Notes under the pieces: model-generated
What the model was told of the DNA's origin: nothing
The model's database searches: none
Seen by the model: only the letters and a program-made list of their open reading frames with translations
Shown here: positions 5,398 through 39,186 of the stretch, piece by piece
Numbering within the stretch: position 1 is the first letter of the stretch
Layout of the letters: every line of letters starts with the position of its first letter
Position numbers and translations under genes: made by a program
Source: Candidatus Omnitrophota bacterium
Lineage (GTDB): Bacteria; Omnitrophota; Gorgyraeia; Gorgyraeales; Gorgyraeaceae
NCBI GenBank assembly: GCA_042572045.1
Contig: JBHPFI010000002.1
Span: 92,245 to 156,244, forward strand
Length of the DNA stretch: 64,000 nt
Direction: 5' to 3'

Positions 5398-6110
5398 TTG
5401 AGGTCTCCTTTAATACCTATGGTAACTTCCTTAAGGGGCATCTTCTTTCCGGACAACCTCAAGGCTTCATTAACGATCTGCATAAGCCCGAAACAGCAAG
5501 GCACCTCCATATGGACTACTGTTATACTCTTTATACTGTTCACCTTGAATATTTCTGTTAGCTTTTCCTCGTATATCGTAGCTGCGTCAAGCTTCGGGCA
5601 TCCTATCACAAGCGCCTTACCTCTTAACAAATCCTGGTGAAAATCAGGGTATGAAAATGGAACGCAATCAGCAGCTATCAATAAATCAGCATCCTTTAAA
5701 TATGGGGCCTCTGTGGGTACAAGCATCAGCTGCACAGGCCAATTGATAAGCTCGGATTCGCTCTTCTTGCGTATTCCGCCCTTGGTAGCGGATGGACCAT
5801 CTTTTTTAAGGGTCTTGACCGCTGTGCCGGGACAGCCGCATGGCAATTCCTTTTTTTTCTTGTTTTTTAATTCCTCTAGATGTTTTTCTGTTGCTTTCTC
5901 GTTAAAGGCGTCGGCCTCTCTTTCTTCTATAGTTATTGCGCCTTCTGGACAATGGCCAAGACAGGCCCCCAGCCCATCGCAATAAATCTCCTTCGCGAGC
6001 CTTGCCTTTCCGTCTATTATCTGAAGGGCCCCTTCTGCGCAATTAGGGACACAAAGTCCGCATCCATTACATTTTCCTTCATCAATCTTTACGATTTTTC
6101 TTTTTGCCAT
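5394..6110 (-). CDS. 4Fe-4S dicluster domain protein (hcp-associated)
   Basis: 238 aa. Motifs CNGCGLCVPNC and CDGLGACLGHCP. Confidence 0.75.
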   Translation of the reverse strand: MAKRKIVKIDEGKCNGCGLCVPNCAEGALQIIDGKARLAKEIYCDGLGACLGHCPEGAITIEEREADAFNEKATEKHLEELKNKKKKELPCGCPGTAVKTLKKDGPSATKGGIRKKSESELINWPVQLMLVPTEAPYLKDADLLIAADCVPFSYPDFHQDLLRGKALVIGCPKLDAATIYEEKLTEIFKVNSIKSITVVHMEVPCCFGLMQIVNEALRLSGKKMPLKEVTIGIKGDLK

Positions 6111-19739: not shown

Positions 19740-20240
19740 TTAAGCACGTTTTTTTCTACGTGCAAAAAATGACTTCTTCTTTTTAACGGGCTTCTGCCTT
19801 TTCTCAAGCCTCTTTTTATCGGAATAACGTTCCCGGGAAAAATCTCTTTGTTCGGGCTTATTATTCCGGTTTGCGTTAAACAGGTTGCCTTTTTTGCGCT
19901 TTGAAAAACAATCCTTGCAGTATACCGGACGGTCTCCGCTGGGTTTAAAAGGGACTTCGCATTCTTTGCTGCAGTCTGCGCAAATAACCCGAGTATAAGT
20001 TCTTTCCCTGGGGCCACTGTCTTGTTTTCCCCTGTCATGGCGATGAAAGTGATTGAAGCGCTGGGAAGGCTTTTGGGAATAGCTTTTCTCAAAAGGCCTT
20101 TTTGAAGACTGGCTGATTAAGATATCCAGCTTCTTCTCCATGGCACTCAACTGCTGCTGCACTTTATTAATGCAGTCAGCTACACCCGGCTCATCCTGCG
20201 GCGCGACTAATAAACTTTTGTGTTTAAAACGCTTTTTCAC
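19740..20240 (-). CDS. basic zinc-ribbon protein (CxxC-x16-CxxC), long paralogue
   Basis: 166 aa with a GTG start. Core is ICADCSKECEVPFKPSGDRPVYCKDCFSKRK, flanked by K/R-rich tails. Confidence 0.6.
   Translation of the reverse strand: MKKRFKHKSLLVAPQDEPGVADCINKVQQQLSAMEKKLDILISQSSKRPFEKSYSQKPSQRFNHFHRHDRGKQDSGPRERTYTRVICADCSKECEVPFKPSGDRPVYCKDCFSKRKKGNLFNANRNNKPEQRDFSRERYSDKKRLEKRQKPVKKKKSFFARRKKRA
19894..19985 (-). repeat. 92-bp perfect direct repeat, copy A (zinc-ribbon core)
   Basis: Identical over 92/92 nt to 20447-20538, checked base by base. Confidence 0.9.
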
Positions 20241-20430
20241 ATTACACCTTTCTTTTTACCTACTGTAACACAAATAAAAACCCCTTGCGACTTATTTTGC
20301 TACAAGGAGTTAAAAGTAGTGGCCTTTCGACGCGTTCGTCGCTTCGCTCGCTTGCTCACCGCCACCGAACGATCCGTAAAGCTACCTTTGCGGATCTGCT
20401 AAAAGAAAGAAGCTAACAAAATCTATTCTT

Positions 20431-20601
20431 TTAACGCCTTTCGTTCTTGCGCTTTGAAAAACAATCCTTGCAGTATACCGGACGGTCTCCGCTGGGTTTA
20501 AAAGGGACTTCGCATTCTTTGCTGCAGTCTGCGCAAATCGCCTTGTGCATCTCCCGTGACCCTCCGCCGTATCCACCACCACTACCTCCTTGATATCCCA
20601 T
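20431..20601 (-). CDS. Gly-rich zinc-ribbon protein, short paralogue (56 aa, absent from ORF track)
   Basis: ATG at 20601 with a GGGGGT RBS. Translation is MGYQGGSGGGYGGGSREMHKAICADCSKECEVPFKPSGDRPVYCKDCFSKRKNERR*. Confidence 0.6.
   Translation of the reverse strand: MGYQGGSGGGYGGGSREMHKAICADCSKECEVPFKPSGDRPVYCKDCFSKRKNERR
20447..20538 (-). repeat. 92-bp perfect direct repeat, copy B
   Basis: Identical to 19894-19985. Confidence 0.9.
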
Positions 20602-20831: not shown

Positions 20832-20901
20832 ATTATACCTCAAACAAAAATCCCTTGCAACCTATTTTGTTAAAAGGGATTAGAAGTATTGGCTCCCCGG
20901 G
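20832..20901 (-). repeat. island boundary 1 (outermost): hairpin/promoter + tRNA-Asn 3'-end core
   Basis: Core TGGCTCCCCGGG at 20890-20901 is 12/12 identical to 39111-39122. Hairpin TCCCTT/AAGGGA. Minus-strand TTGCAA (20855-20860) -N17- TATAAT (20832-20837). No conserved arm. Confidence 0.75.
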
Positions 20902-22086: not shown

Positions 22087-22131
22087 AAAATCCCAAGTGA
22101 AAACTTGGGATTTTGTCCAATATGGCTCCCC
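22087..22131 (-). repeat. island boundary 2: hairpin + core
   Basis: Hairpin AAATCCCAAGT-GAAA-ACTTGGGATTT at 22087-22112 with a T-run on the minus strand. Core TGGCTCCCCG at 22122-22131 (10/10). No conserved arm. Confidence 0.7.
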
Positions 22132-28837: not shown

Positions 28838-28908
28838 AGATTTTATCACACCGCTAATAGCATGTCAAAGAAAAAGAGAGCTTGCCAAAAATGACAAACT
28901 CTCTTATC

Positions 28909-29046
28909 GTAACTTATTATATTTCAATAAGTTACATATCTTGGCTCCCTCAAGACTACGAGTTTCGCAACTTTTTGGAGGAGTTTAAGAATTGGTGTTT
29001 GAGTAAAGAAGCGACCAAATTGTCATTATTCCGACTTACAGCCTAA
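28909..29046 (-). repeat. island boundary 3: hairpin + core + conserved arm
   Basis: Hairpin GTAACTTATT/AATAAGTTAC. Core TGGCTCCC at 28942-28949. Arm in the plus frame reads WLPQDYEFRNFLEEFKNWCLSKEATKLSLFRLTA*. Confidence 0.75.
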
Positions 29047-29375
29047 CAGCAAGTATTTCCTTCTCCTGAACAATCACAGTTACAGCCTTTACCTTCATCT
29101 TTTATCGTTTCTCGATATTTAATCATTCTTTCTTTTCTAATTTTCTTCAAGTCGTCTCTATCAATAATAATATTCATACCATCTAGTGGCTTTGTTGCAC
29201 AGGCATACTCATTCTTACCATTTATCTCTACTACGCACGAGTTGCAGCAGCCCTTGCTTTTATTGTTTCTATAGCAGGGGGCTGCTATACTGATATTTAA
29301 CCTATCAGCAATATCAACTATATTTTTATCGTTACTACTAATCTGTATTTCTTTTCTATCAATGACAATCTTCAC
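29043..29375 (-). CDS. 2Fe-2S ferredoxin-like protein with Cys-rich tail
   Basis: 110 aa. C..C.....CC.SC pattern and a C-terminal CNCDCSGEGNTCC. Confidence 0.6.
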   Translation of the reverse strand: MKIVIDRKEIQISSNDKNIVDIADRLNISIAAPCYRNNKSKGCCNSCVVEINGKNEYACATKPLDGMNIIIDRDDLKKIRKERMIKYRETIKDEGKGCNCDCSGEGNTCC

Positions 29376-29396
29376 TGCTGTCTCCTTTTTATCCTG

Positions 29397-29445
29397 ATTA
29401 TATATAAAACAAAAACCCCTTGCAACTTATTTTGTTATAAAAGAG
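29397..29445 (-). promoter_or_regulatory. hairpin/promoter module (partial hairpin)
   Basis: Minus strand reads AAAATAAGTTGCAAGGGGTTTTTGTTTTATATATAAT. That is TTGCAA (29420-29425) -N17- TATAAT (29397-29402). Confidence 0.55.
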
Positions 29446-29498
29446 TAGTAAATAAACCAAGGATTATTTATTTTAGGGGTTTTGGGTAGGCCTACCTA

Positions 29499-29744
29499 TT
29501 ATCGATACCGAAAAATTAACAAAAGAATTAACAATGAAGAAATAAATCCGATAGAATACGATGAAATCAAAATCAAATCTTTAAGGAGCATCACATAAAC
29601 TAAGCCTGTGCCGTGTCCTGCCACCACCATTATCCATAATCCCACACTTAAACCAGATACATTTTTAGTTTTTATTATGGAAATAATCTGTGGAACAAAA
29701 CAAAAAGTAAACAAAACTACACTAATGACACCAAATATATACAT
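29499..29744 (-). CDS. PQ-loop / SemiSWEET-like 3-TM protein
   Basis: 81 aa and 3 TM, with a VPQI motif in TM1. Confidence 0.65.
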   Translation of the reverse strand: MYIFGVISVVLFTFCFVPQIISIIKTKNVSGLSVGLWIMVVAGHGTGLVYVMLLKDLILISSYSIGFISSLLILLLIFRYR

Positions 29745-29747
29745 TCT

Positions 29748-29882
29748 TTACTTTTGGGCAGTGCAACATTTCATACTTTTACCCATTATCGGACATTTCA
29801 TCATAGCGCATTTCATAAACATTAAAACTAAAGCACCGATTACCACTAACAATACTATCTGTCCAAACATTTTCCAACCCAT
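29748..29882 (-). CDS. 44-aa membrane peptide with Cys-rich tail (absent from ORF track)
   Basis: AAGGAGG RBS. Translation is MGWKMFGQIVLLVVIGALVLMFMKCAMMKCPIMGKSMKCCTAQK*. Confidence 0.45.
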   Translation of the reverse strand: MGWKMFGQIVLLVVIGALVLMFMKCAMMKCPIMGKSMKCCTAQK

Positions 29883-29909
29883 AACTACCTCCTTTTACTT
29901 TGGGTGTAT

Positions 29910-30170
29910 TTATTGCAATCTAGGAACAAGAAAAGAACTTACATAAAGATTTCCATCGCTTTTAAGAGAGTGCATTGTTCCTGCAGGGACAATAAATGCT
30001 TTTCCTACGCTTAACTCTACTTGCCCATCTTCTAAAACTCCAAAGCCAGAGCCTTTTATGCAATAAAATATCTCATCTTGTTTATCGTGTTTATGCAAAG
30101 GAACTTTTGTATCTGAATTGACATGATATGCTTTTACCACAATAGATTCTTTAATAGCGTTTAGGTCCAT
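29910..30170 (-). CDS. cupin-domain protein
   Basis: 86 aa. H.H....E...G and a second-motif H (GTMHSL). Confidence 0.7.
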   Translation of the reverse strand: MDLNAIKESIVVKAYHVNSDTKVPLHKHDKQDEIFYCIKGSGFGVLEDGQVELSVGKAFIVPAGTMHSLKSDGNLYVSSFLVPRLQ

Positions 30171-30180
30171 ATCTTTCTCC

Positions 30181-30360
30181 TTATCTGCCTCTTTTCTTGT
30201 TTCGTTTCCCTTTTGTTTTATCCGATTCTGGCTTATGTTCGTCTAACTCAATAAACTTAAACTCGTTTGATAGAACACAGCCATCGGAAGAAGGTTCACA
30301 TTTCTTTTTCCGTAATCCACAAAAACCATCTTTTATTTCATTAGGACAGGTCCAACTCAT
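30181..30360 (-). CDS. 59-aa Cys-rich protein (absent from ORF track)
   Basis: Translation is MSWTCPNEIKDGFCGLRKKKCEPSSDGCVLSNEFKFIELDEHKPESDKTKGKRNKKRGR*. It is the first gene behind a consensus promoter and replaces the spurious plus ORF 30197..30403. Confidence 0.45.
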   Translation of the reverse strand: MSWTCPNEIKDGFCGLRKKKCEPSSDGCVLSNEFKFIELDEHKPESDKTKGKRNKKRGR

Positions 30361-30370
30361 ATCGTTTCTT

Positions 30371-30399
30371 ATTATACGCTGCTATAGAATGGCAGTCAA
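30371..30399 (-). promoter_or_regulatory. sigma70-type promoter of the cupin cassette
   Basis: Minus strand TTGACT (30394-30399) -N17- TATAAT (30371-30376). Confidence 0.6.
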
Positions 30400-30421
30400 T
30401 TAACAAATAAATGCAAACAAA

Positions 30422-30561
30422 ATAACCCACTGCAACTTATTTAATCACAGTGGGTTATGTAATTTTGGCTCCTCTTCATGGACGAGTTTCGAACTTATTT
30501 GAGAGAGTTTAAGGTGTTTCGTTATACAGAAGAGCTGAATAGGTCAATCCAAAATCCAACA
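30422..30561 (-). repeat. island boundary 4: hairpin + core + diverged arm
   Basis: Hairpin ATAACCCACTG/CAGTGGGTTAT. Core TGGCTCC at 30467-30473. Arm reads ..MDEFRTYLREFKVFRYTEELNRS... Confidence 0.65.
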
Positions 30562-30864
30562 TTAAGATTGTACAAATTTTAGTTCAGTGCCATCATTTGG
30601 ACAATAATAAACATCTGAACTAAAGGTTTGGCCACATTCTGGACAGAATCTCTGCATATTTGAATCTCCTATCAATGCCCCTCCTGCAGCACCTACTGCT
30701 GCTCCTATAAGAGCACCCTCAGCTGCATGGTCTGACTGATGTCCTATAATCGCTCCAGCACCTGCTCCTACAAGACTACCTATCCCAGCTCCTTTTTGAG
30801 TACCTGTACAGCCTACAATAAACACCAACGAAATAAAAAGTAACACTAATAGATTCTTTTTCAT
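30562..30864 (-). CDS. lipoprotein with glycine-zipper and C-terminal zinc-ribbon
   Basis: 100 aa. Lipobox LVFIVGC, GxxxG repeats and CPECG...CPNDG. Confidence 0.6.
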   Translation of the reverse strand: MKKNLLVLLFISLVFIVGCTGTQKGAGIGSLVGAGAGAIIGHQSDHAAEGALIGAAVGAAGGALIGDSNMQRFCPECGQTFSSDVYYCPNDGTELKFVQS

Positions 30865-31373
30865 TACTCGCCTCCTTTTTTCATGCGTCCAAAACCCTTA
30901 CGATGTCTTTTCATTCCATTACGATGCTTCCCAATAAATGCTCTAAATTTTGTATACTGCTCAGGGCTTAGTATGTTCCTTACCTCTAAAATACCTTCAA
31001 GTCTGTTATCTTGCATTTCTGAATGTATAATTTTTAGTTCATTATTGAGCTGGTTTATTTTCTCCATATCAAGTTCTTGCTTTTGAAGTTCTTCTCTAAG
31101 TTCTTTCCTCTTATTTGAAATTTCATGACGAAATGCCTTCATCCCCTCTCTGTTCTGAGTCTTGTGGGCCTTTAACTGCTCTTCCTGCTCAGGTGTAAGG
31201 TTAAGTTCTTTAGAGATCTCTTTAAAACGTGCTTCCATTTTCCCTTTTATAACTTCCTTTTCTCCAGGATCAAAGCAGCGTTCCTTCCCTGACCATGCAT
31301 AGGCATTTGATGCCAGAAAAATACCTAAAATAAAAATGTAGAACCATATAGAATTCTTAAATTTTATATTCAT
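30864..31373 (-). CDS. periplasmic Spy/CpxP-family protein
   Basis: 169 aa with a signal peptide. Two LTPEQ/LSPEQ motifs. Confidence 0.7.
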   Translation of the reverse strand: MNIKFKNSIWFYIFILGIFLASNAYAWSGKERCFDPGEKEVIKGKMEARFKEISKELNLTPEQEEQLKAHKTQNREGMKAFRHEISNKRKELREELQKQELDMEKINQLNNELKIIHSEMQDNRLEGILEVRNILSPEQYTKFRAFIGKHRNGMKRHRKGFGRMKKGGE

Positions 31374-31428
31374 GACTTTTGCCCTCCTTTCACTAACTTA
31401 GACAAATAAAGCTCTCTAAAAGTTCCAA

Positions 31429-31932
31429 TTAGAGAAAATATTCTTCTATTGCTGTATTATAATCTACATTTTCTCCATTTGAGCCGTAACTGTTCTCTGT
31501 AAATAAATATGCTAGATACTCAACCTGTTCTCTTGACTGCATATTAACAATTTCTTGTTTGCTGGAATAAAACTTTGTAAATATGCCCAAGCAAAGTACT
31601 AATACCATCGCAGTCGCAACGGCAAAGATAGGTTTTGGGATATAGATAAAATTCCTTAGCTTATCCATTAAATTATGCGTGGGGTATGGTCTTGTTTCTT
31701 GCTGGGTTTCAGCTTCTATTTTCTCTTTTATGCGATACCAGATTGAATCAAGCGGCTCTTTTGTCTCTATTTTTCTAAATGGTCCTATAACGGATTTTGT
31801 AACCATAGACGCGAATTCTCTACAAGCTCTGCATTGTGCCAAATGTTCTTCTATGAGCTCTTTCTGAGTTGCTTTTATCTCTTTATCTGAATAATCTGTA
31901 AGAATCATATTTTTAACTTTTTTACACTTCAT
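31429..31932 (-). CDS. anti-sigma factor (zf-HC2 type), single TM
   Basis: 167 aa. H...C..C motif (HLAQCRAC). Overlaps the sigma gene. Confidence 0.7.
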   Translation of the reverse strand: MKCKKVKNMILTDYSDKEIKATQKELIEEHLAQCRACREFASMVTKSVIGPFRKIETKEPLDSIWYRIKEKIEAETQQETRPYPTHNLMDKLRNFIYIPKPIFAVATAMVLVLCLGIFTKFYSSKQEIVNMQSREQVEYLAYLFTENSYGSNGENVDYNTAIEEYFL

Positions 31933-32467
31933 TTTTTACCACCTCTCTTCTTAGAACTATTAGTTTTTGCCTGGCTCTCTTAAGTCTTGAACGCACTGTA
32001 TTAATATTAATCCTTAATACGCTGGATATCTCTTTATAGCTAAGTCCCTGGATTTCCTTCAATACTATACAGGTCTTGTGCTCTAGGCTAAGCTTACCCA
32101 GAAGATATCTAACTAAGTTCTCATTATCATGATCTTTTCCCTTATGGTCAGGACTAGTATTTAGTGCAAACTCATAATGTACTCTTTTATTTTCTTCCTT
32201 TGAGATTTTCTTTTTGAAATTTATGGCTGTATTCACAGCAATCCTGTAAAGCCATGTCTTCAAGGACGAACGAAAATTAAAGCTTCTTAGGTTCTTAAAT
32301 ACTTTAATAAATACCTCTTGGGTTATTTCTTCAGCATCTTTGCTATTATTGGCAACTCTAAATGCTACATTATATACAAAGCTCGAGCTCGACTTATAGA
32401 TTTCCTCAAATGCTCTCATATCTCCTTGAGACGCCTTTATTATTAAATCATTGTCTATTTCGACCAT
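31922..32467 (-). CDS. ECF (group 4) sigma-70 factor
   Basis: 181 aa. Region 2 (DAEEITQEVFIKVF) and region 4 HTH (LSYKEISSVLRININTVRSRL). Confidence 0.85.
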   Translation of the reverse strand: MVEIDNDLIIKASQGDMRAFEEIYKSSSSFVYNVAFRVANNSKDAEEITQEVFIKVFKNLRSFNFRSSLKTWLYRIAVNTAINFKKKISKEENKRVHYEFALNTSPDHKGKDHDNENLVRYLLGKLSLEHKTCIVLKEIQGLSYKEISSVLRININTVRSRLKRARQKLIVLRREVVKNEV

Positions 32468-32618
32468 CTCCTGCCCCTAATAATATTAGACAAAGAAAAC
32501 TCTCTAAAAGTTCCTTTATATTATAACATAACCAAAGACAAAGATAACCTGTTAGAGCATAACAGACTATCTCTGCCTTACTTTATTGAAAATGTTAGAT
32601 TAAAAATCTAAATTTGTT

Positions 32619-33233
32619 CTACTTACCATACATAACTTTGAGCTGTTCTACAGATGGAAATTCATAGTAAAATTCACCTTGCGGTCCAACAAACCCATCT
32701 CCTAATTTGTTCAATGTTACCGCTGTATAACTACCATTCGCATTAGGGATATTTACTGTATAACTATCTTCTGAATCTTTAGAATTAGATTCTATAACCT
32801 TTACTTCCTTTGGAAGCTCGACAATTTCATAAACTGGGTCGGGGATGACAATATATCTTCCTTTTTTTCTAACATAATAAATATCGTTGTAATAATAATA
32901 GGCATTACCTTTAATAACTATAGTTTTGTGGCCTTTTGGTAAAGCAGTAACTATAGCTCCTCTTGGTGCATCAACAATTATATACCCCGAAGGAGTCCTT
33001 TTGTAAAAATATCCATGATGATAATAATACTCTACTCCTGCATGAATAATTACTTTCGCTATTAGCTCAGGTAAGCTTACTATTTTTCCACGATAAGGAT
33101 GATGATGGTGACGGTGCTGTCTATGTCTTATGGATTTTTTTTTGCTTGCGAAAGCATCTACAGAATAAACTGATAAAAAACTACACACAACTATACTCAT
33201 AACAACCGTTCTTATAATCTTTTTTGTTACCAT
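32619..33233 (-). CDS. secreted His/Tyr-rich protein, unknown function
   Basis: 204 aa with a signal peptide. HRQHRHHHHP tract and YYY-rich beta repeats. Confidence 0.5.
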   Translation of the reverse strand: MVTKKIIRTVVMSIVVCSFLSVYSVDAFASKKKSIRHRQHRHHHHPYRGKIVSLPELIAKVIIHAGVEYYYHHGYFYKRTPSGYIIVDAPRGAIVTALPKGHKTIVIKGNAYYYYNDIYYVRKKGRYIVIPDPVYEIVELPKEVKVIESNSKDSEDSYTVNIPNANGSYTAVTLNKLGDGFVGPQGEFYYEFPSVEQLKVMYGK

Positions 33234-33346
33234 TTTGCCTCCTTTCTTAGTTATGTTTCATAATGAAATTTCTTTTTAATAACTTAGACAACCAAAATTA
33301 TAAAAAAGTTCCCTATCTATAATATTTTTAAAATATGGAAATAAAA

Positions 33347-33466
33347 AAACCGTTGTAACTTATTCAATTACAACGGTTTAGAAACAGTGGCTCCCCCCAA
33401 GACTACGAGTTTCGCAACTTTTTGGAGGAGTTTAGGGATTATTGCTTATCGCACGAAGCAAGAAAA
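33347..33466 (-). repeat. island boundary 5: hairpin + core + arm
   Basis: Hairpin AAACCGTTGTAA/TTACAACGGTTT. Core TGGCTCCCC at 33388-33396, followed by extra Cs that break the frame. Arm reads DYEFRNFLEEFRDYCLSHEARKL. Confidence 0.75.
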
Positions 33467-33832
33467 TTAGTGACAGCTATGGTTAATACATGCATTATCC
33501 ACGGTAATTTCTTCTAATTTACCTTCTTTGTATTTTTTGATTATTTCTTCTACTGTTCCGGCATTTGCTCTATAAGCTTTAATACCACCTTCATTAAGCT
33601 TTTGAACTGCCCTAGCTCCCATCCCACCGCATACTACTGCATCAATCCCCTTATTATCTAATGCTTTTAGTGGGTGGCACATTCCGTGCATATGTTGACT
33701 ATCGCCATTGTTAATAACTTCAAATGCTCCTTTTTCATTATCATAGATTAAAAAATAAGGAGCGCTCCCAAAATGAGCATTAACTTCTGACTTCAAGCCT
33801 TCATTTTCTACTATCGGAATACATATTTTCAT
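33467..33832 (-). CDS. NifB/NifX-type (dinitrogenase FeMo-cofactor-binding fold) small protein
   Basis: Start at MKICIPI (ATG 33832, sharing 1 nt with the upstream stop codon). HFG.A..F and GIDAVVCGGMG motifs. Confidence 0.7.
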   Translation of the reverse strand: MKICIPIVENEGLKSEVNAHFGSAPYFLIYDNEKGAFEVINNGDSQHMHGMCHPLKALDNKGIDAVVCGGMGARAVQKLNEGGIKAYRANAGTVEEIIKKYKEGKLEEITVDNACINHSCH

Positions 33833-34305
33833 CAAACTGCCCTCCCACATCTACCTCTACCACGACCTCCGCCCCCACCTGTCCTCGCCCAACCTCTATC
33901 TTGTGGCGCTCTATGAATATTTGAGCTGCTACACTTGGGGCACACATTTGGTCTGCCAGCTCCATATGGCGAAGTCCATTCATTTTTACAATCATAACAA
34001 ACAAAATATCTCTCCATCATTTTAACCACACCCCCTTCTATTTTTAATGCTTTACTATTAACTAATGCATCTGCTATTTTTCTATGTGCAGAGGAAATAA
34101 TATTTCCGAATGTTTGCCTTGAAACATTCATCTTTTTAGCAGCATCTTCTTGATACTTTTCTTCCAAATCAGCAAGTCTTATTGCCTCAAGTTCATCCAT
34201 AGTTAAATCAACTTCATCTAATGAATCAACAGGAATACCTCTGGGCTTAAAATAATTTGCATTAGGATTACAACGAACTCTCCTACATCTAAAAGGTCTT
34301 GGCAT
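33832..34305 (-). CDS. DUF134 regulator fused to C-terminal zinc-ribbon and RGG tail
   Basis: 157 aa. The first 95 aa are paralogous to 28500..28802. They are followed by CYDC...CPKC and GGGGGRGRGRCGR. Confidence 0.75.
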   Translation of the reverse strand: MPRPFRCRRVRCNPNANYFKPRGIPVDSLDEVDLTMDELEAIRLADLEEKYQEDAAKKMNVSRQTFGNIISSAHRKIADALVNSKALKIEGGVVKMMERYFVCYDCKNEWTSPYGAGRPNVCPKCSSSNIHRAPQDRGWARTGGGGGRGRGRCGRAV

Positions 34306-34320
34306 GTTATACCTCCATAG

Positions 34321-34340
34321 TTATTGGCATATGCCAATAA
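34321..34340. promoter_or_regulatory. 20-bp perfect palindrome, candidate operator of the second DUF134 gene
   Basis: TTATTGGCATATGCCAATAA lies immediately downstream of TTGACG (34364-34369) -N16- TATACT (34342-34347) on the minus strand. Confidence 0.6.
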
Positions 34341-34387
34341 TAGTATATCATATCTATAATTTTCGTCAAGATTATTATGTAAAAATA

Positions 34388-34430
34388 AATTGGCGCCAGA
34401 TAAAAAAATATCTGGCGCCAATTTTGGCTC
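34388..34430 (-). repeat. island boundary 6 (weak): hairpin + 6-nt core
   Basis: Hairpin AATTGGCGCCAGAT/ATCTGGCGCCAATT. Only TGGCTC (34425-34430) matches the tRNA end, and there is no arm. Confidence 0.45.
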
Positions 34431-34798
34431 GGGAGGTGGGGATATAGGACAGTTTAATCTCAGTATTTTGGCTGTATATATGGAGCAGGTTTTAGGGTCA
34501 ATTTTAGACTTTCGGCAATATCAGAGATAGAAGTTGTAGAGATATATAGCGCTTCAAGGCATGCTCGAACCATCAAAAACACTGTAAATTTGTCCAATTT
34601 TGTCCATCAAACATTATATAAAATTTATGTAACTATATTTAAAATAAGGAGGTGTATCAAATAGGTGTGGTTGTCCTGGACATTATCAAAAAAGTAGTTT
34701 TTACCTAGTTTAATACAAAACCTTTACTTAAAGAATCAGATATGCTATAATAAAAAATGTTGGGTTTAAATGGTTAACTAAAAAAAGGAGGTGACACA

Positions 34799-34906
34799 TG
34801 GCAAAAACTAAGAAGGCAAGATGTCCGGCTAAAACAAAAGAAGGCAAGGCATGTAAAAGTCGTGCATCTGGAAAATCTAAATTCTGCATTAGTCATAAGA
34901 AATAGC
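34799..34906 (+). CDS. 35-aa basic CCCH zinc-knuckle peptide (absent from ORF track)
   Basis: AAGGAGGTG RBS. Translation is MAKTKKARCPAKTKEGKACKSRASGKSKFCISHKK*. The promoter TTTACT-N17-TATAAT lies upstream. It is the only plus-strand gene in this part of the island. Confidence 0.45.
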
Positions 34907-34938
34907 AAAACGGGTTATTTATTTAAGTTTTTTCTTCC

Positions 34939-34980
34939 TGGCCCTTCGACGCGGCCCCTTCGGGGCCTTACTCAGGGCCA
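34939..34980 (+). other. GC-rich two-tier hairpin with UUCG tetraloop
   Basis: TGGCCCT-tcgacgc-GGCCCC-TTCG-GGGGCC-ttactc-AGGGCCA. It lies 30 nt after the small ORF stop. Confidence 0.5.
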
Positions 34981-34993
34981 AATTTGCCAAAAG

Positions 34994-35127
34994 AAAAGCC
35001 TCTGCTTATTATAACATAAGAGAGGCTTTTCCTACTGCAAATTTGGCTCCCCGCATTAGATGAGTTTCGCAACTGGTTATATGCTGAAGAAGCTAATAAA
35101 TTATATAAAGAACCGTTGTTAACCTAA
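34994..35127 (-). repeat. island boundary 7: hairpin + core + short-variant arm
   Basis: Hairpin AAAAGCCTCT/AGAGGCTTTT. Core TGGCTCCCCG at 35044-35053. Arm reads WLPALDEFRNWLYAEEANKLYKEPLLT*. Confidence 0.75.
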
Positions 35128-35193
35128 AAGTGATGGGTGTAAGATTTCTCAAATCTTTCAACTGATTATGCAAAGTATGTTATATATTTTTTA

Positions 35194-35727
35194 TTAGGTT
35201 GGTGTTGCGGTACCACCTAAAATAGAAAACAATAACATAAAGATTAACGCCTGAATAACCCAACCAATCGCGCAAACTCCCACAGCTCTTAACGTGTTCT
35301 TATAATCGAGTGCTTGTCTAACCGCAATGACCATTGCCGTTAGCATCCAAATTGAGGCCCCTAGAAAAACAATCCCTGTCAGTCCTGGGATAATGCCCAA
35401 TACCCGAATCAAACCCGGCGAGGTCGAAAAACCAATGGTTCGCAGCATCTCTCCCATATCTGCCTTGGTCTGAGATTCCGGAAGAAGTCTTGTACCGATA
35501 AAGTAAGTAAGAAAAGCCCATACATACCAGCTGATAAGAGCGACAATTGTCCCCATGAGGATTCCACCAAGGCCTCCTTTTGCAATGGTTCCTATTCCGG
35601 CGGCTATACTAGAGAGAATAACTACCCCCGTGGCCTGTCTCATCGCCGTAGTGTCAGCTTCAACCTCTTCATACAGCTTAACATCTAGTTTAGCAGCACG
35701 AATAATACGATCGTTAAAATCAGCCAT
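35194..35727 (-). CDS. Yip1-family integral membrane protein
   Basis: 177 aa and 5 TM, with an N-terminal cytosolic helix. Confidence 0.65.
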   Translation of the reverse strand: MADFNDRIIRAAKLDVKLYEEVEADTTAMRQATGVVILSSIAAGIGTIAKGGLGGILMGTIVALISWYVWAFLTYFIGTRLLPESQTKADMGEMLRTIGFSTSPGLIRVLGIIPGLTGIVFLGASIWMLTAMVIAVRQALDYKNTLRAVGVCAIGWVIQALIFMLLFSILGGTATPT

Positions 35728-35867
35728 TTCAATCTCCTTTCAAGTTTTGTTTAGATTAGTCCTCGTGCTCCGGACTCAGGAATCTTTATCTTGGAAGTTC
35801 TTGTACCGTTTTGAAACTTAGCTATCAATGTGTCTTATGGCAATCTTCAAACTGTCCCTTTTTTCTA

Positions 35868-35975
35868 CTAGTGTGTTTTTTCTTGTTTTTTCCTGTTTGC
35901 TTCGTTTTTTGCGTTTTTTGCTTTGTTTACTTGTTTGTTGTGTTTATTCTTATCTTTCCTACCTTTATCGCCCAT
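35868..35975 (-). CDS. 35-aa highly basic peptide (absent from ORF track; tentative)
   Basis: AAGGAGGAA RBS. Translation is MGDKGRKDKNKHNKQVNKAKNAKNEANRKKQEKTH*. The sequence is low complexity. Confidence 0.3.
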   Translation of the reverse strand: MGDKGRKDKNKHNKQVNKAKNAKNEANRKKQEKTH

Positions 35976-35994
35976 GGATATTCCTCCTTTTTTT

Positions 35995-36097
35995 CCTCCC
36001 CGTATTGGACGAGTTTCGCAACTGGTTAGAGGAGTTTAAGGATTATTGTCTTTCAGAAGAAGTCAGCAAGTTATGCAAAGAACTTGTTATCGCCTAA
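35995..36097 (-). repeat. island boundary 8: degenerate core + best-preserved arm
   Basis: TTCCTCCCCG matches the core at 8/10. Arm reads LPVLDEFRNWLEEFKDYCLSEEVSKLCKELVIA*, which is the end of ORF-track 35828..36097. No hairpin. Confidence 0.65.
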
Positions 36098-36104
36098 TCA
36101 CTTA

Positions 36105-36485
36105 TTACTTCGCATTAGGGTCAGCTTGCACTATACCAAACATAAGTCCACCCGGCTCTGCACATGTTGCATACCAACCGATAGTGGGTATAGCCATCTT
36201 TGGTTCAATGATATTGCCGCCATTCGCTTTTACCTTTTCAATAAACTCATCAAGGCTTTGAACCGGTATTGTTACTTGAGTTAAGGGCTTACCACCTGTG
36301 ATAGGAGTATCTTTGACTTCGCCAATACCTCCATCAATACCAATCTCTTTATCGCTTCCTGCGCTAATTCGGTAGTATTCATATGGCATAGGAAACTTTT
36401 CAAAACTCCAGCCAAAGACATTTTCAAAAAACTTTCTGGCATCTTTAAGATTGTTGACTGTGAAATCAAAATATGTTGGTCTCAT
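36105..36485 (-). CDS. VOC (glyoxalase/bleomycin-resistance fold) family protein
   Basis: 126 aa of paired beta-alpha-beta-beta-beta modules. Confidence 0.7.
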   Translation of the reverse strand: MRPTYFDFTVNNLKDARKFFENVFGWSFEKFPMPYEYYRISAGSDKEIGIDGGIGEVKDTPITGGKPLTQVTIPVQSLDEFIEKVKANGGNIIEPKMAIPTIGWYATCAEPGGLMFGIVQADPNAK

Positions 36486-36499
36486 CTTTTACCCTTTCT

Positions 36500-36742
36500 T
36501 TACCCAACAATGCGTAATGCAAAATATGGAATAACATTGAAAAAAAACACGGCTATCTTGTAGAACATCGCACCAGCATAGTGAATCTCATCAAACCTCT
36601 CAACTGATAACTTAAGAAACTTGCTATGGAACTTGTAGACAAAATCATGTAATACCGTAATAGCAAAAAACCACCAGAGAAGTATTCCTATATTGATTAT
36701 TGAACACCAGCCTAACACTGCACGCATCGTCTCAATTGTCAT
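36500..36742 (-). CDS. small 2-TM membrane protein
   Basis: Start at MTIETM (AAGGAGG RBS). The ORF track allows a start at 36760. Confidence 0.5.
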   Translation of the reverse strand: MTIETMRAVLGWCSIINIGILLWWFFAITVLHDFVYKFHSKFLKLSVERFDEIHYAGAMFYKIAVFFFNVIPYFALRIVG

Positions 36743-36762
36743 TTTGTCCTCCTTTTTCAATC

Positions 36763-36925
36763 ATTCTACTCCAAATAAAAACCCCTTGCAACTTATTTTA
36801 TTGCAAGGGGTTATAAGTAGTGGCTCCCCTCGGACTACGAGTTTCGCAACTTTTTGGATGAGTTCAAAAACTATTGTATCACTGAATAAGCAAGCAAGCT
36901 ATATGAAGAACTCGTGATTGCTTAA
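36763..36925 (-). repeat. island boundary 9: promoter/hairpin + core + arm
   Basis: 36772-36829 is 58/58 identical to 39062-39119 (hairpin AACCCCTTGCAA/TTGCAAGGGGTT plus TGGCTCCCC). Arm reads WLPSDYEFRNFLDEFKNYCITE*ASKLYEELVIA*, with an in-frame TAA at 36887-36889. Confidence 0.85.
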
Positions 36926-36960
36926 TCATTACTTTTGATTAGAATATCACTTTTGTGTGC

Positions 36961-37815
36961 TCATTTTGTCGCGACATTGAAAAATTCTACACCATGTTTA
37001 TCTAATTCGCCCACTAGTTCTCGCGAGTTTTCCCATCCTGTTTCTTTTAGAAAACCACCAAGTTTCTCAGGTTGTATGCTCCAGAGCCAAGGTTCTCCGG
37101 TAACCTTGAGAATCCACATGGTCAACCCTGTCCAACGGCCAGCATCAGGTCGACCATCTGTTCTGGTAGCGACATACGTAAAGGCAATTCGGCTGCCAGC
37201 ACCAGAGATTACAGCGCACTGGTTAAACAAGCCCCGGACTGCCTCAGGGGGCAGATACATCAGCAGCCCCTCAGCCACAATTACGGTCTGCATTTTCGAG
37301 TTCCATGAGTCATTAGCTTCTAGAACGTCCACCAGTTTGTGCTTACCCAAGTCCTCGCCGATTACATGAAGGTTATTCTGAGGTCCCATCGCCTCTATGC
37401 CTTTTGCTTTTAGACTGGCTGTAGCCGGGTGGTCTATTTCAAAAAAATGCACTTTAGGAAAATCCGGAGCTAATCGCCACCCCAGCGTATCATAACCAGC
37501 TCCCAAAACAAGAACCTGAGTAACGCCCCCAGCAATCCCTATCCTTACCTGGCGCTCACAAAATGCTTTTCTGTGAGCAAAAGCTTCAAACTGTCCCGGC
37601 ATCATCCAATCGAATGCCTTGTAAATTGAGACTGCTCTTCGCGAGCGGGAAAATTGAACTGCAGTTTTACTAACTGCACCAGAGGTAAGAAGAAGTTTTG
37701 CCGTAGTTTCAACAATCCCAGGGGGAAGAACTTTGTCCATCCCTGGCTTTGCCCCCAAAGTAACAATGTTCAGGGCAACCTTGCGCGCGGTATAGCTCGG
37801 TGCATCTTTACGCAT
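36961..37815 (-). CDS. class I SAM-dependent methyltransferase (LCMT/O-MT-like)
   Basis: 284 aa. VLVLGAGYDTLGWR SAM motif. Confidence 0.7.
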   Translation of the reverse strand: MRKDAPSYTARKVALNIVTLGAKPGMDKVLPPGIVETTAKLLLTSGAVSKTAVQFSRSRRAVSIYKAFDWMMPGQFEAFAHRKAFCERQVRIGIAGGVTQVLVLGAGYDTLGWRLAPDFPKVHFFEIDHPATASLKAKGIEAMGPQNNLHVIGEDLGKHKLVDVLEANDSWNSKMQTVIVAEGLLMYLPPEAVRGLFNQCAVISGAGSRIAFTYVATRTDGRPDAGRWTGLTMWILKVTGEPWLWSIQPEKLGGFLKETGWENSRELVGELDKHGVEFFNVATK

Positions 37816-37841
37816 AACATACTCCTATGATTAGAACTATA

Positions 37842-38177
37842 TTATTTCGACTTAACTAAAAATAAAATACCAATAACGACTAGTGGCAAACTAATTATTG
37901 AAAATTGAACAAGCCCTTGGTAGGTATGAAAGAAAAACATGGAAACTATTGCCAAAGCTAGAAATAATATCCCACCTACTTTTGGCTTTTTCCATGCAAT
38001 AAATACAGCTACCCAAACTAAAAGCCAAGGAGCAATATTTGGCAGATTCAATAATACTCTTTTAATTCCATTTGCATTTTCTGCACCTGAAAGCATGGCA
38101 AAAACAGTAAATAGTCCCGCATAAAGTAAGACCAATATTTTTGAGATAGTCGTAGTCATAGAAAAAACTCCGGACAA
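37842..38177 (-). CDS. small 4-TM membrane protein
   Basis: 111 aa, hydrophobic throughout. Confidence 0.5.
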   Translation of the reverse strand: MSGVFSMTTTISKILVLLYAGLFTVFAMLSGAENANGIKRVLLNLPNIAPWLLVWVAVFIAWKKPKVGGILFLALAIVSMFFFHTYQGLVQFSIISLPLVVIGILFLVKSK

Positions 38178-38235
38178 ATACCCTGACCTTATTTTTTCCA
38201 GTATACCACAAATGAGCCTCTCGCACTATTCAATA

Positions 38236-38382
38236 AAAAATGCCTGACTTTTTAATCAGGCATTTTTATCGTAACTTCATTATATTTAATTAGTTACGAA
38301 ATATTGGCTCCCCGTATTGGACGAGTTTCGCAACTGGTTATATTCAAAAGAAACTAATAAATTCTCTCTGTCTCTTAAGTAA
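38236..38382 (-). repeat. island boundary 10: hairpin + core + short-variant arm
   Basis: Hairpin AAAAATGCCTGA/TCAGGCATTTTT. Core TGGCTCCCCG at 38305-38314. Arm reads WLPVLDEFRNWLYSKETNKFSLSLK*. Confidence 0.8.
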
Positions 38383-39052: not shown

Positions 39053-39102
39053 ATTTTACAACAAATAAAAACCCCTTGCAACTTATTTTATTGCAAGGGG
39101 TT
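39053..39102 (-). promoter_or_regulatory. tRNA-Asn terminator hairpin that also carries the -35 of the next promoter
   Basis: Minus strand reads AACCCCTTGCAA-TAAAATAAG-TTGCAAGGGGTT-TTTATTTGTTG-TAAAAT. That is TTGCAA (39076-39081) -N17- TAAAAT (39053-39058). Confidence 0.6.
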
Positions 39103-39110
39103 ATAAGTAG

Positions 39111-39186
39111 TGGCTCCCCGGGCAGGACTCGAACCTGCGACTTACTGGTTAACAGCCAGTCGCTCTACCAACTGAGCTACCGGGGA
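39111..39186 (-). tRNA. tRNA-Asn(GUU): tRNA-Asn (anticodon GUU), CCA encoded
   Basis: TCCCCGGTAGCTCAGTTGGTAGAGCGACTGGCTGTTAACCAGTAAGTCGCAGGTTCGAGTCCTGCCCGGGGAGCCA. Acceptor TCCCCGG/CCGGGGA, anticodon loop CTGTTAA, T-arm GCAGG-TTCGAGT-CCTGC. Confidence 0.9.

What the first reader, a model, noticed from the sequence alone, without database searches (positions are those of the whole stretch)
28942..38382. The conserved arm next to the tRNA-Asn cores is a decayed ORF that reads through the att core
Seven boundaries (28942, 30467, 33388, 35044, 35995, 36821, 38305) are followed by a homologous 75-105-nt arm. Read on the plus strand, in frame with the core (TGG CTC CCC = WLP), the arms give these peptides. 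WLPVLDEFRNWLEEFKDYCLSEEVSKLCKELVIA*. WLPQDYEFRNFLEEFKNWCLSKEATKLSLFRLTA*. WLPSDYEFRNFLDEFKNYCITE*ASKLYEELVIA*. WLPALDEFRNWLYAEEANKLYKEPLLT*. WLPVLDEFRNWLYSKETNKFSLSLK*. Differences between copies behave like protein evolution: Ser is TCA versus AGT, Leu is CTT versus TTG and TTA versus TTG, and there are W/F/Y swaps and an in-frame 7-codon indel. One copy has an in-frame TAA (36887) and one has a frameshifting C-run (33388), so they are relics. In contrast, the block GAGTTTCGCAAC is nucleotide-identical in six copies with no synonymous change, and it contains AGTT-N4-AACT. That suggests an additional DNA-level constraint, such as a recombinase-binding site. A gene spanning attP that is split on integration is the known logic of SSV-type archaeal integrases, which trap the element after insertion. 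Here only the C-terminal stub survives. The sequence on the other side of each core is a hairpin with stop codons, so the N-terminal body is absent and the identity of the gene is unknown.
Basis: partly seen in the sequence, partly recalled or inferred. Interest (0 to 1): 0.75.

Follow-up and report, generated by a model that had tools for sequence, protein, structure and literature searches.

The report
Detached tails of a serine integrase
The seven repeated 'arms' are the cut-off last 25-35 codons of a serine-type integrase gene that straddles its own insertion site at the end of a tRNA-Asn gene, so each arm marks one past insertion of foreign DNA; the principle is known, but this integrase family and its conserved tail have not been described in the literature I could search.

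Summary
Seven boundaries carry TGGCTCC(CC), the antisense 3' end of tRNA-Asn (39111-39186, minus strand), followed by a homologous 75-105 nt arm.

The arm evolves like protein in the frame TGG CTC CCC. A scan of 5.8 billion proteins found only 30-84 aa ORFs with this peptide. A metagenome DNA scan then found ORFs that read through the hairpin and core into the arm (L165, L089, L128, L154; fragment P0302).

These ORFs are large serine recombinases (Resolvase, Recombinase and Zn-ribbon domains; more than 1900 homologues). In L166 and L167, a 90-93% identical recombinase abuts tRNA-Asn exactly at TGG and ends WLPG*. The arm is therefore the recombinase's C-terminal tail plus the P' side of attP, detached on integration.

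Only about 30 residues are lost.

The window holds no recombinase body, and three of seven arms are damaged, so they are relics. Arrays of such stubs occur in 41 sources (median spacing 1.5 kb). How they build up is unresolved.

Closest known case: Dehalococcoides ssrA islands, where DsiB overlaps attL.

The parts
39111..39186 (-). Intact tRNA-Asn(GTT). Its 3' end (GGGGAGCCA, which reads TGGCTCCCC on the + strand) is the attachment core.
   Evidence: ARAGORN; Rfam tRNA, 75 bits; sequence.
39070..39102 (-). Terminator hairpin directly downstream of tRNA-Asn. It has the same sequence type as the hairpins left of the other cores.
   Evidence: Terminator scan; repeat families D2-D4.
28942..29046 (+). 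Core TGGCTCCCT plus arm 1, long form. Open frame: WLPQDYEFRNFLEEFKNWCLSKEATKLSLFRLTA*.
30466..30582 (+). Core TGGCTCCTC plus arm 2. Decayed: a 1-nt deletion in the block (GAGTTTCGAAC).
33388..33469 (+). Core plus arm 3, long form, frameshifted by one extra C in the core. The same cassette is present in SAG AM-312-C06 (L012 3275-).
35044..35127 (+). Core plus arm 4, short form. Open frame: WLPALDEFRNWLYAEEANKLYKEPLLT*.
35993..36097 (+). Degenerate core TTCCTCCCC plus arm 5, long form. Open frame: ..LPVLDEFRNWLEEFKDYCLSEEVSKLCKELVIA*.
36821..36925 (+). Core plus arm 6, long form, with an in-frame TAA at 36887-36889.
38305..38382 (+). Core plus arm 7, short form. Open frame: WLPVLDEFRNWLYSKETNKFSLSLK*.
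36780..36812 (-). Hairpin left of core 36821. It is a minus-strand intrinsic terminator. In the arm frame it reads KPLATYFIARGYK*. I infer it is a remnant of the ..KPF..AKG.. codons of the recombinase 3' end.
   Evidence: comparison with L128 and L154 DNA.
33347..33379 (-). Hairpin/terminator left of core 33388.
30422..30458 (-). Hairpin/terminator left of core 30466.
28874..28935 (-). Two hairpins left of core 28942 (28874-28905 and 28908-28935).
34387..34434 (-). Hairpin plus degenerate core (TTGGCTCGGG) with no arm.
20276..20328 (.). Outermost boundary of the island: hairpin plus degenerate core TGGCCTTTC, next to the flanking zinc-finger and typA/bipA genes.
20849..20898 (.). Hairpin plus exact core, followed by GGGTTGAACGA. 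This looks like a tRNA-like remnant, not an arm.
22087..22131 (.). Hairpin plus exact core without an arm.

Best explanation
Each arm is an attL-type scar left by an integrative element whose large serine recombinase (LSR) gene runs across its own crossover site.

In the unrecombined gene the 3' end reads ...Y(R/K)KPF..AKG..(S/N) | W L P | x(L/D)(D/Y)EFRN(W/F).. | stop. The hairpin, the 9-nt core and the arm are consecutive codons of one ORF. The core is identical to the antisense of the CCA end of tRNA-Asn.

Recombination within TGGCTCCCC joins the recombinase body to the tRNA, where it stops after a few antisense-tRNA codons (WLPG*, or W-x4-DSN..). The last 25-35 codons, which also carry the P' half of attP, are left at the far end of the insert. 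Repeated insertions at the same tRNA leave a row of such tails, all in one orientation.

Shown: the ORF continuity, the recombinase identity, the junction with tRNA-Asn, and the restriction of attP/attB identity to the 9-nt core.

Inferred:
- The window's arms arose this way, because the window has no recombinase body.
- The hairpins are remnants of recombinase 3' ends that double as terminators for the tRNA and the cassette genes.
- The arms in this window now decay neutrally.
- Conservation of GAGTTTCGCAAC reflects protein and att-site constraint together.
- How rows of small inserts without a recombinase build up is not resolved.
For: - Protein-like evolution in the core frame: open-frame length, codon table with Leu TTA/CTG and Ser AGY/TCN exchanges and a stop at the same codon in many copies, and lowest pN/pS in frame 0.
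- Long ORFs through hairpin and core into the arm: L165 has at least 372 codons upstream, and L089, L128 and L154 also qualify. The L165 ORF has Recombinase and Zn_ribbon_recom domains. Full-length homologues of about 493 aa add Resolvase.
- Homologues P0058-P0061 (90-93% identity) cover only 93% of the query and end ..NWLPG*.
- In L166 and L167 the recombinase stop lies inside tRNA-Asn, whose 3' end starts exactly at TGG. L165 and L166 DNA are co-linear up to TGGCTCCCC and diverge right after it. L038 shows hairpin-core-arm without a recombinase, i.e. attL.
- A relative overlaps tRNA-Gln in L168. Of 112 full-length homologues, at least 29 end W-x4-D[SL]N, which is an antisense T-loop, and about 8 carry arm-like tails.
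- Window-type tail attached to recombinase sequence: P0302 reads ..TYRKPFDLLAKGLSRSNWLPVLDEFRNWLMYNSVSPLYKELL... P0307, P0257 and P0247 are full-length with tails.
- The hairpin equals codons KPF..AKG in L128 and L154. In the window these hairpins are the top-scoring minus-strand terminators.
- There is a graded series of 3' recombinase remnants upstream of cores: at least 372, 103, 77, 49, about 20 codons, and hairpin only.
- A cassette shared by the window and L012 has arms that differ mostly by nonsynonymous changes, as expected for relics.
Against: - No recombinase gene or tblastn-detectable fragment lies in the window. The link therefore rests on homology of arms with tails seen elsewhere.
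- Canonical serine-integrase rules (attP x attB only) do not predict repeated insertion next to an earlier insert.
- Median spacing between arms is 1.5 kb, with five units of 147-149 bp. That is too small for each unit to have carried a 1.5-kb recombinase gene, unless the body was deleted every time.
- Two thirds of 235 arms still have a stop at codon 27-34. That is more intact than long-dead relics might be.
- Homology of the window's hairpins to KPF..AKG codons is plausible but not statistically established.
- The crossover dinucleotide was not mapped.
Confidence: 0.85

Rival explanations
1. Integron-like platform. The units between cores are non-autonomous gene cassettes, each with a composite site (terminator hairpin, CCA core, tail-coding arm). 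A recombinase acting in trans inserts and excises them at the tRNA-Asn end. On this view they are not the decayed remains of separate autonomous elements. The origin of the arm, a recombinase tail, is the same as in the main explanation. Only the way the array forms differs.
For: - 41 sources hold 2-7 arms, always co-oriented. Spacing has a median of 1502 bp and a minimum of 147-149 bp, i.e. 'empty' units.
- Cassette cargo is diverse and accessory: cupin, glyoxalase, nitroreductase, methyltransferase, metal resistance, ECF sigma, R-M, TA, Fic and two-component genes.
- No recombinase remnants lie inside the window's cassettes.
- The same cassettes occur in a different order in the window and in SAG AM-312-C06, with homology breaking at or near the core.
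- In L089 a recombinase with a full tail sits at one end of a row of further cores.
Against: - No recombinase is linked to most arrays within 8-10 kb.
- No circular cassette was seen.
- Serine integrases normally recombine only attP with attB.
- The right-end hairpins of the shared cassette differ between genomes, which does not fit a simple unit.
- The graded series of recombinase 3' remnants favours decay of once-autonomous inserts in at least some cases.
Confidence: 0.35
2. The arm is an independent small protein gene of about 30 aa, for example MSWLPRQDEFRNFCMSDETEKVYQKLEEVISIC.
For: - Gene callers called 57 ORFs of 30-84 aa covering arms.
- In one subfamily an ATG lies two codons before W, and AAGGG of the hairpin could serve as a ribosome-binding site.
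Against: - There is no consistent start codon or ribosome-binding site. Stop codons lie directly before TGG in copies with an intact arm (L004 TGA TGG, L024 TAG TGG).
- The N-terminal extensions are unrelated to each other.
- The conservation is fully explained by the recombinase ORF.
Confidence: 0.03
3. The arm is purely a DNA- or RNA-level element: a degenerate tRNA-Asn 3' half, an att arm or a 3'-UTR structure, with no coding history.
For: - The proximal arm resembles the tRNA. GGAC lies at the same offset, GC(A/G)ACT is shared, and ACTGGTTA matches the anticodon stem-loop. In the RQ subfamily CAGGAC is also shared.
- The block has low synonymous variation.
Against: - Codon-phase statistics favour coding.
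- The stop codon is conserved.
- The arm is continuous with a recombinase ORF.
- No conserved fold was found beyond a 4-bp stem.
- No Rfam family matches the arms.
Confidence: 0.03
4. The arm is the stub of an SSV-type (type I) tyrosine integrase.
For: The logic is the same: attP lies inside the integrase ORF, and the target is a tRNA (PMC7253208).
Against: - The ORF has serine-recombinase domains.
- No tyrosine recombinase is linked to the arrays. The only one found is a XerD-like gene in L011.
- Only the last 30 residues are removed.
Confidence: 0.01

Closest known systems
Dehalococcoides ssrA genomic islands with the CcrB-like serine recombinase DsiB (McMurdie et al. 2011, PMC3146451)
   Same: - A large serine recombinase targets the 3' end of a tRNA-like gene.
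- The recombinase ORF always overlaps the att site at its 3' end and stops in the neighbouring island or in the target gene.
- Tandem islands are bounded by short direct repeats of the target's 3' end.
- Many islands lack an integration module.
- The authors already suggested that the gene may be fully functional only on the circle, or next to an island that supplies the 3' fragment.
   Different: - The target there is tmRNA, with the inferred insertion in the T-loop and a 20-bp repeat. Here it is tRNA-Asn (and tRNA-Gln in a relative), with a 9-nt core at the CCA end.
- DsiB's overlapping part is described as divergent and probably non-functional. Here the detached tail is a conserved peptide (WLPxLDEFRN..) across several phylum-level bins.
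- No DsiA-like small partner gene or six-gene integration module was seen here.
- Units here are much smaller, with a median of 1.5 kb.
SSV-type (type I, 'suicidal') archaeal tyrosine integrases (She et al. 2001/2004 from memory; Badel et al. 2020, PMC7253208)
   Same: - attP lies inside the integrase ORF.
- Integration into a tRNA gene splits the gene.
- Fragments mark captured elements next to tRNA genes.
- Hybrid genes can form from fragments of different origin.
   Different: - The catalytic family differs: tyrosine there, serine here.
- That type is described as restricted to archaea.
- There the split yields two inactive pseudogenes. Here all catalytic and DNA-binding domains stay together and only about 30 C-terminal residues are exchanged.
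SCCmec and related staphylococcal cassette chromosomes (CcrAB/CcrC); from my own knowledge of the field
   Same: - Large serine recombinases insert elements at the 3' end of a conserved gene.
- Tandem composite arrays form.
- Non-autonomous pseudo-SCC units lack a recombinase.
- CcrB is the nearest named family by NCBIfam.
   Different: - The match scores 83 bits against a cut-off of 900, so this is not a Ccr orthologue.
- The SCC target is rlmH (orfX), not a tRNA.
- The ccr genes do not span the att site.
Integrons (IntI, attI, attC cassettes)
   Same: - Rows of small, co-oriented accessory-gene cassettes are each bounded by a conserved recombination site.
- Cassette order varies between relatives.
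   Different: - There is no IntI-type tyrosine recombinase.
- The sites do not fold as attC hairpins.
- The site derives from a recombinase 3' end and a tRNA end.
Classical tRNA-targeting tyrosine-integrase islands and accretion of cis-mobilisable elements
   Same: - Direct repeats of a tRNA 3' end delimit tandem islands.
- Elements without an integrase are retained.
   Different: - The recombinase family differs.
- The repeat here is only 9 nt at the CCA end.
- The neighbouring conserved sequence is recombinase coding sequence, not a displaced tRNA fragment. True displaced tRNA fragments also occur at this locus in L007 and L012.

Membership tests
Large serine recombinase (serine integrase) elements | The recombinase has an N-terminal Resolvase catalytic domain plus Recombinase and zinc-ribbon (coiled-coil-bearing) DNA-binding domains. 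| tested here: met
   P0058 has PF00239, PF07508 and PF13408. The L165 ORF has PF07508 and PF13408; its N-terminus is cut by the contig end. This was met in related loci only. The window itself has no such gene.
Large serine recombinase (serine integrase) elements | Short att sites share little more than the crossover region. | tested here: met
   L165 (P-O-P'), L166 (P-O-tRNA) and L038 (hairpin-O-P') share only TGGCTCCCC.
Large serine recombinase (serine integrase) elements | Recombination activity, and cleavage at a central dinucleotide. | not testable with these tools
   Needs biochemistry or genetics.
Recombinase ORF spanning its own att site (DsiB-type in bacteria, SSV-type in archaea) | The ORF is continuous across the crossover point in one configuration, and ends in target-gene sequence in the other. 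| tested here: met
   L165 and L089 read into the arm. L166 and L167 read WLPG* into tRNA-Asn, and L168 reads into tRNA-Gln. At least 29 of 112 homologues end in an antisense T-loop.
Recombinase ORF spanning its own att site (DsiB-type in bacteria, SSV-type in archaea) | The detached gene fragment is found at the distal boundary of inserts. | tested here: met
   Seven arms in the window and 235 in all sources, always on the tRNA-body side of a core.
SSV-type tyrosine integrase | Tyrosine recombinase catalytic fold (R..HxxR..Y). | tested here: not met
   The domains are those of serine recombinases. A motif and phmmer search found a single XerD-like gene, in L011 only.
Cassette chromosome recombinases CcrA/B/C | Score above the NCBIfam equivalog cut-off. 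| tested here: not met
   CcrB 83 bits against 900; CcrC 58 against 900; CcrA 50 against 700.
Integron | An IntI tyrosine recombinase lies adjacent to the array. | tested here: not met
   None was found in the window ORFs or in L001-L037.
Integron | attC sites fold as imperfect hairpins (R''-L''...L'-R'). | tested here: not met
   DNA folds of 18 arms on both strands show only the upstream terminator hairpin and a 4-bp AGTT/AACT stem.
Integron | An array of small, co-oriented cassettes with diverse accessory genes. | tested here: met
Known RNA families (Rfam 15) | A match at the gathering score within the arms. | tested here: not met
   Only the four tRNAs match in the window.

The most novel reading that the evidence does not exclude
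The tRNA-Asn locus would be a serine-recombinase-based cassette-capture platform, analogous in function to an integron. Small non-autonomous cassettes, each carrying a terminator hairpin, the CCA core and a tail-coding arm, would be inserted and excised by a recombinase acting in trans.

Each recombination event would rewrite the recombinase's own C-terminus: a full conserved tail when the gene faces an arm, and a truncated antisense-tRNA tail when it faces the tRNA. The enzyme isoform would then report the recombination state. It could set directionality without a separate directionality factor.
Probability: 0.2. Interest if true: 0.85.

Novelty: new variant of a known kind. Interest (0 to 1): 0.6.

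Why it matters
This extends the 'integrase gene spans its own attachment site' principle. That principle is described as archaeal for tyrosine integrases and has been noted once for a bacterial serine recombinase. Here it applies to a large serine-recombinase clade with more than 1900 homologues. The clade is found in bins labelled Omnitrophota, Atribacterota and candidate-phyla-radiation bacteria.

Three practical consequences follow.

- The clade targets the CCA end of tRNA genes, an unusual target class for serine integrases.
- The conserved detachable tail gives a simple sequence tag (W-L-P-x-L-D-E-F-R-N) for mapping island boundaries and insertion histories in uncultured lineages. It also explains dozens of orphan 30-84 aa 'hypothetical proteins' in databases.
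- If the tail controls activity or direction, that would matter for how serine integrases are regulated and for their use in genome engineering.

For this window specifically, the arms are relics. They delimit about 19 kb of accessory genes acquired next to tRNA-Asn.

Tried and rejected
- **Integron attC.** The arms do not fold as long imperfect hairpins, and no IntI is present.
- **Reading on the minus strand.** One antisense frame is also fairly open and shares the wobble position. It gives Ser-rich, low-complexity peptides with no start codon and no conserved stop.
- **tRNA-like or split-tRNA 3' half.** There is no T-arm pairing and no acceptor partner. Neither ARAGORN nor Rfam calls them.
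- **Xer/dif-type site.** TTTCGCA resembles an XerC arm from memory, but the rest of a 28-bp dif is absent. The XerD-like gene in L011 is probably housekeeping.
- **IS200/IS605-type (Y1) ends.** One Y1_Tnp gene lies 900 bp from an arm in L041. It is not recurrent.
- **Protein search with the peptide profile.** It returned only 30-84 aa singletons. The cause is that integrated, tail-less recombinases dominate, and the rare tailed ones sit at contig ends.
- **Viral contig scan.** No matches.
- **Recurrent neighbour genes in 37 genome loci.** No recombinase was among them.
- **Dyad symmetry around the core.** I looked by eye for a way to place the crossover dinucleotide. The result was inconclusive.

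Full report
**What is in the window**

A tRNA-Asn(GTT) gene lies at 39111-39186 on the minus strand. On the plus strand its 3' end reads TGGCTCCCC, preceded by a strong hairpin at 39070-39102.

The same 9-mer, exact or with one mismatch, recurs at 20890, 22123, 28942, 30466, 33388, 35044, 36821 and 38305. Degenerate copies lie at 20320, 34426 and 35993.

Left of almost every copy is a hairpin that a simple scan ranks among the best minus-strand intrinsic terminators of the region. Right of seven copies lies a homologous arm of 75-105 nt. GAGTTTCGCAAC occurs six times against 0.15 expected.

The stretch from 20.3 to 39.1 kb is an island between typA/bipA and tRNA-Asn. It is filled with small accessory genes, nearly all on the minus strand. 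These include ferredoxin-like, cupin, LTXXQ/metal-resistance, ECF sigma with anti-sigma, DUF6515, NifX-like, two DUF134, Yip1, glyoxalase, LCM methyltransferase, nitroreductase, ArsP permease, DsbD and radical-SAM genes. No recombinase is present.

**Is the arm coding?**

A genome-collection scan with TGGCTCC-N9-10-AYGAGTTTCGCAAC gave 37 loci, mostly Candidatus Omnitrophota bins and single-cell genomes. None came from viral contigs.

In 52 copies the frame in phase with TGG CTC CCC stays open for a median of 18 codons past the block. The other two plus frames manage 4.5 and 6. The codon table shows a clear peptide, WLPxLDEFRN[WF][LC]..[DE]E[AT].K[LV]Y[KQ]EL..I[TA]*. It has Leu TTA/CTG and Ser AGY/TCN exchanges and a stop at the same codon in many copies.

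One antisense frame is also fairly open and shares the wobble position. It yields Ser-rich peptides without a start or a conserved stop.

With 235 copies, pN/pS of the distal arm is 0.42-0.79 in this frame, against 0.78-1.32 in shifted frames. The arm therefore has a coding history.

**The search for the rest of the gene**

In the first 54 copies nothing conserved preceded W. Stops often lay directly before TGG. A profile search of 5.8 billion proteins returned only 57 singletons of 30-84 aa. Gene neighbourhoods of four of them showed no integrase within 10 kb.

I considered and rejected the following, as detailed under 'tried and rejected': an integron attC, a tyrosine recombinase, a tRNA-like fold, a dif-like site, and IS200/IS605 ends.

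A metagenome scan with a pattern that allows synonymous codons, followed by an nhmmer search, gave 235 arms. Among them, a few had long in-frame ORFs running through the hairpin and the core into the arm:
- L165, with at least 372 codons to the contig edge;
- L089 and L128, which also reach the contig edge;
- L154, with 103 codons;
- L126/L119, with 77 codons.

**Identity of the gene**

The L165 ORF carries Recombinase and Zn_ribbon_recom domains. Its full-length homologues, about 493 aa and more than 1900 in number, add the Resolvase catalytic domain. It is a large serine recombinase. The nearest named families are CcrB and XisF, far below their cut-offs.

The best homologues (90-93% identity) match only 93% of the query and end ..NWLPG*.

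In L166 (an NCBI assembly) and L167, that recombinase gene ends inside a tRNA-Asn gene on the other strand, whose 3' end begins exactly at the TGG codon. L165 and L166 DNA are co-linear up to TGGCTCCCC and differ immediately after it: arm in one, tRNA in the other. L038 shows the third configuration, hairpin-core-arm with no recombinase.

A relative overlaps tRNA-Gln. Of 112 full-length homologues, at least 29 end W-x4-D[SL]N, which is the antisense reading of a tRNA T-loop. Many stop 2-4 codons after W. About eight carry arm-like tails.

The subclade relevant to the window reads ..TYRKPFDLLAKGLSRSNWLP... It is seen with window-type tails in P0302 (..WLPVLDEFRNWLMYNSVSPLYKELL..), in L022 and in P0187. 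P0307, P0257 and P0247 are full-length proteins with tails. P0207, P0195 and P0188 have antisense-tRNA tails.

In L128 and L154, the inverted repeat AAGCCCTT...AAGGGCTT that forms the 'terminator hairpin' is the codons KPF..AKG of the recombinase.

**Interpretation**

The core is the crossover region. The arm is the recombinase's own C-terminal tail and the P' side of attP. The hairpin side is the P side.

Integration at the CCA end of tRNA-Asn moves the recombinase body next to the tRNA and leaves the tail at the distal junction. That matches what the window shows seven times.

Four arms are still open (28942, 35044, 35993, 38305) and three are damaged (30466, 33388, 36821). None has a recombinase body. 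One cassette is shared with SAG AM-312-C06, and its arm has diverged mostly by nonsynonymous changes. I therefore regard the window's arms as relics.

The very low synonymous variation of TTT, CGC and AAC (2-6%) contrasts with frequent change at the third position of GAG. This fits a dual constraint from the protein and from a recombinase-binding half-site. That is inference.

The proximal arm also resembles the tRNA's T-arm and anticodon-stem region: GGAC at the same offset, GC(A/G)ACT, and ACTGGTTA. This is as expected if P' and B' are bound by the same protein.

**What remains open**

Arrays are common. Forty-one sources have 2-7 co-oriented arms, with a median spacing of 1.5 kb and five units of 147-149 bp. 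Cassette order differs between the window and a related single-cell genome, with homology breaking at or near the core.

Two routes to such arrays are possible. One is serial insertion of autonomous elements followed by loss of the recombinase. It is supported by the graded remnants of at least 372, 103, 77, 49 and about 20 codons. The other is trans-mobilisation of small cassettes, supported by their size and clean structure. The data do not decide between them. Canonical serine-integrase rules do not obviously allow either without relaxed site choice.

**Comparison with the literature**

McMurdie et al. 2011 (PMC3146451) describe tandem ssrA islands in Dehalococcoides. [quoted passage not shown] Many of those islands lack an integration module. 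The authors speculate that the gene is fully functional only on the circle or next to an island supplying the 3' fragment. This is the closest precedent.

Badel et al. 2020 (PMC7253208) describe the analogous 'suicidal' tyrosine integrases and state that this type is so far restricted to archaea.

Four features distinguish the present family:
- it belongs to a different serine-recombinase clade;
- it targets the CCA end of tRNA genes;
- only about 30 residues are exchanged;
- those residues form a conserved peptide.

I found no paper describing it. The library is limited to open-access texts.

**Verdict**

This is a new variant of a known kind. Interest is moderate to high for mobile-element specialists. 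For this window itself, the arms are fossils.

Noticed in passing
L007 4364-4693 (SAG AM-312-B13, Candidatus Omnitrophota): The tRNA-Asn at the homologous locus is interrupted in its anticodon loop by a group I intron (Rfam Intron_gpI, 81 bits, 4411-4638, minus strand). ARAGORN therefore misses the gene. L169 may be similar: a recombinase tail reads WLPGSDSN, but no tRNA is called.
   Followed up: partly
L007 2799-2823 and 2823-4363: A displaced 25-nt tRNA-Asn 3' fragment is identical to the window's tRNA end through the T-loop. It bounds a 1.5-kb insert carrying a nucleotidyltransferase/HEPN-like gene pair. The same locus is therefore also used by elements that cross over in the T-loop. Similar tRNA fragments lie at L012 ~6012-6037 and L025 ~1000.
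   Followed up: partly
window 31385-31426, 32473-32514, 33271-33312: Three copies of a roughly 42-nt repeat read GGAACTTTT-N18-GTCTAA on the minus strand. They lie just upstream of the LTXXQ gene, the ECF sigma/anti-sigma operon and the DUF6515 gene. From memory this looks like an ECF-sigma-type promoter, which would mean a small ECF regulon inside one insert (30466-33388).
   Followed up: no
window 34800-34907 (+): This is the only plus-strand gene candidate in the array. It encodes a 35-aa basic Cys-rich peptide (MAKTKKARCPAKTKEGKACKSRASGKSKFCISHKK) with a good ribosome-binding site. It sits in the small unit between the degenerate core at 34426 and the core at 35044.
   Followed up: no
window 39053-39081, 36763-36791, 29397-29425, 20832-20860 (minus strand): The hairpin's TTGCAA, together with a downstream TAnAAT, gives a sigma-70-like promoter match pointing into the next cassette. 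The hairpin module may terminate one unit and start the next. Promoter-like matches are not enriched overall (66 against 60 expected).
   Followed up: no
window 19883-19985 and 20450-20555; L012, L001, L027, L037: A fragment of the treble-clef zinc-finger gene (19740-20240) is duplicated just inside the first boundary. It recurs next to arrays in several Omnitrophota loci.
   Followed up: no
L038-L040, L166 (Atribacterota-like contigs): In this lineage the inserts next to tRNA-Asn are defence islands. They carry MmeI-type and MunI restriction-modification genes, MT-A70, GIY-YIG, HEPN/AbiU2, RhuM and DUF4365.
   Followed up: no
L107 6388/6536, L162 2269/2418, L082 4296/4444, L105 46/193, L089 261/409: Two cores recur 147-149 bp apart. 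An RQ-type arm and a hairpin are followed at once by another core, often with a second arm type (WLPLLDEFRTFK..). These may be 'empty' units, or one inherited arrangement shared by related genomes.
   Followed up: partly
L041 11074-11412: An IS200/IS605-type Y1 transposase gene lies 900 bp from an arm. This was seen only once.
   Followed up: no
Protein database hits P0001-P0057: Dozens of orphan 'hypothetical proteins' of 30-84 aa in public metagenome annotations are gene-caller artefacts that cover detached recombinase tails.
   Followed up: yes
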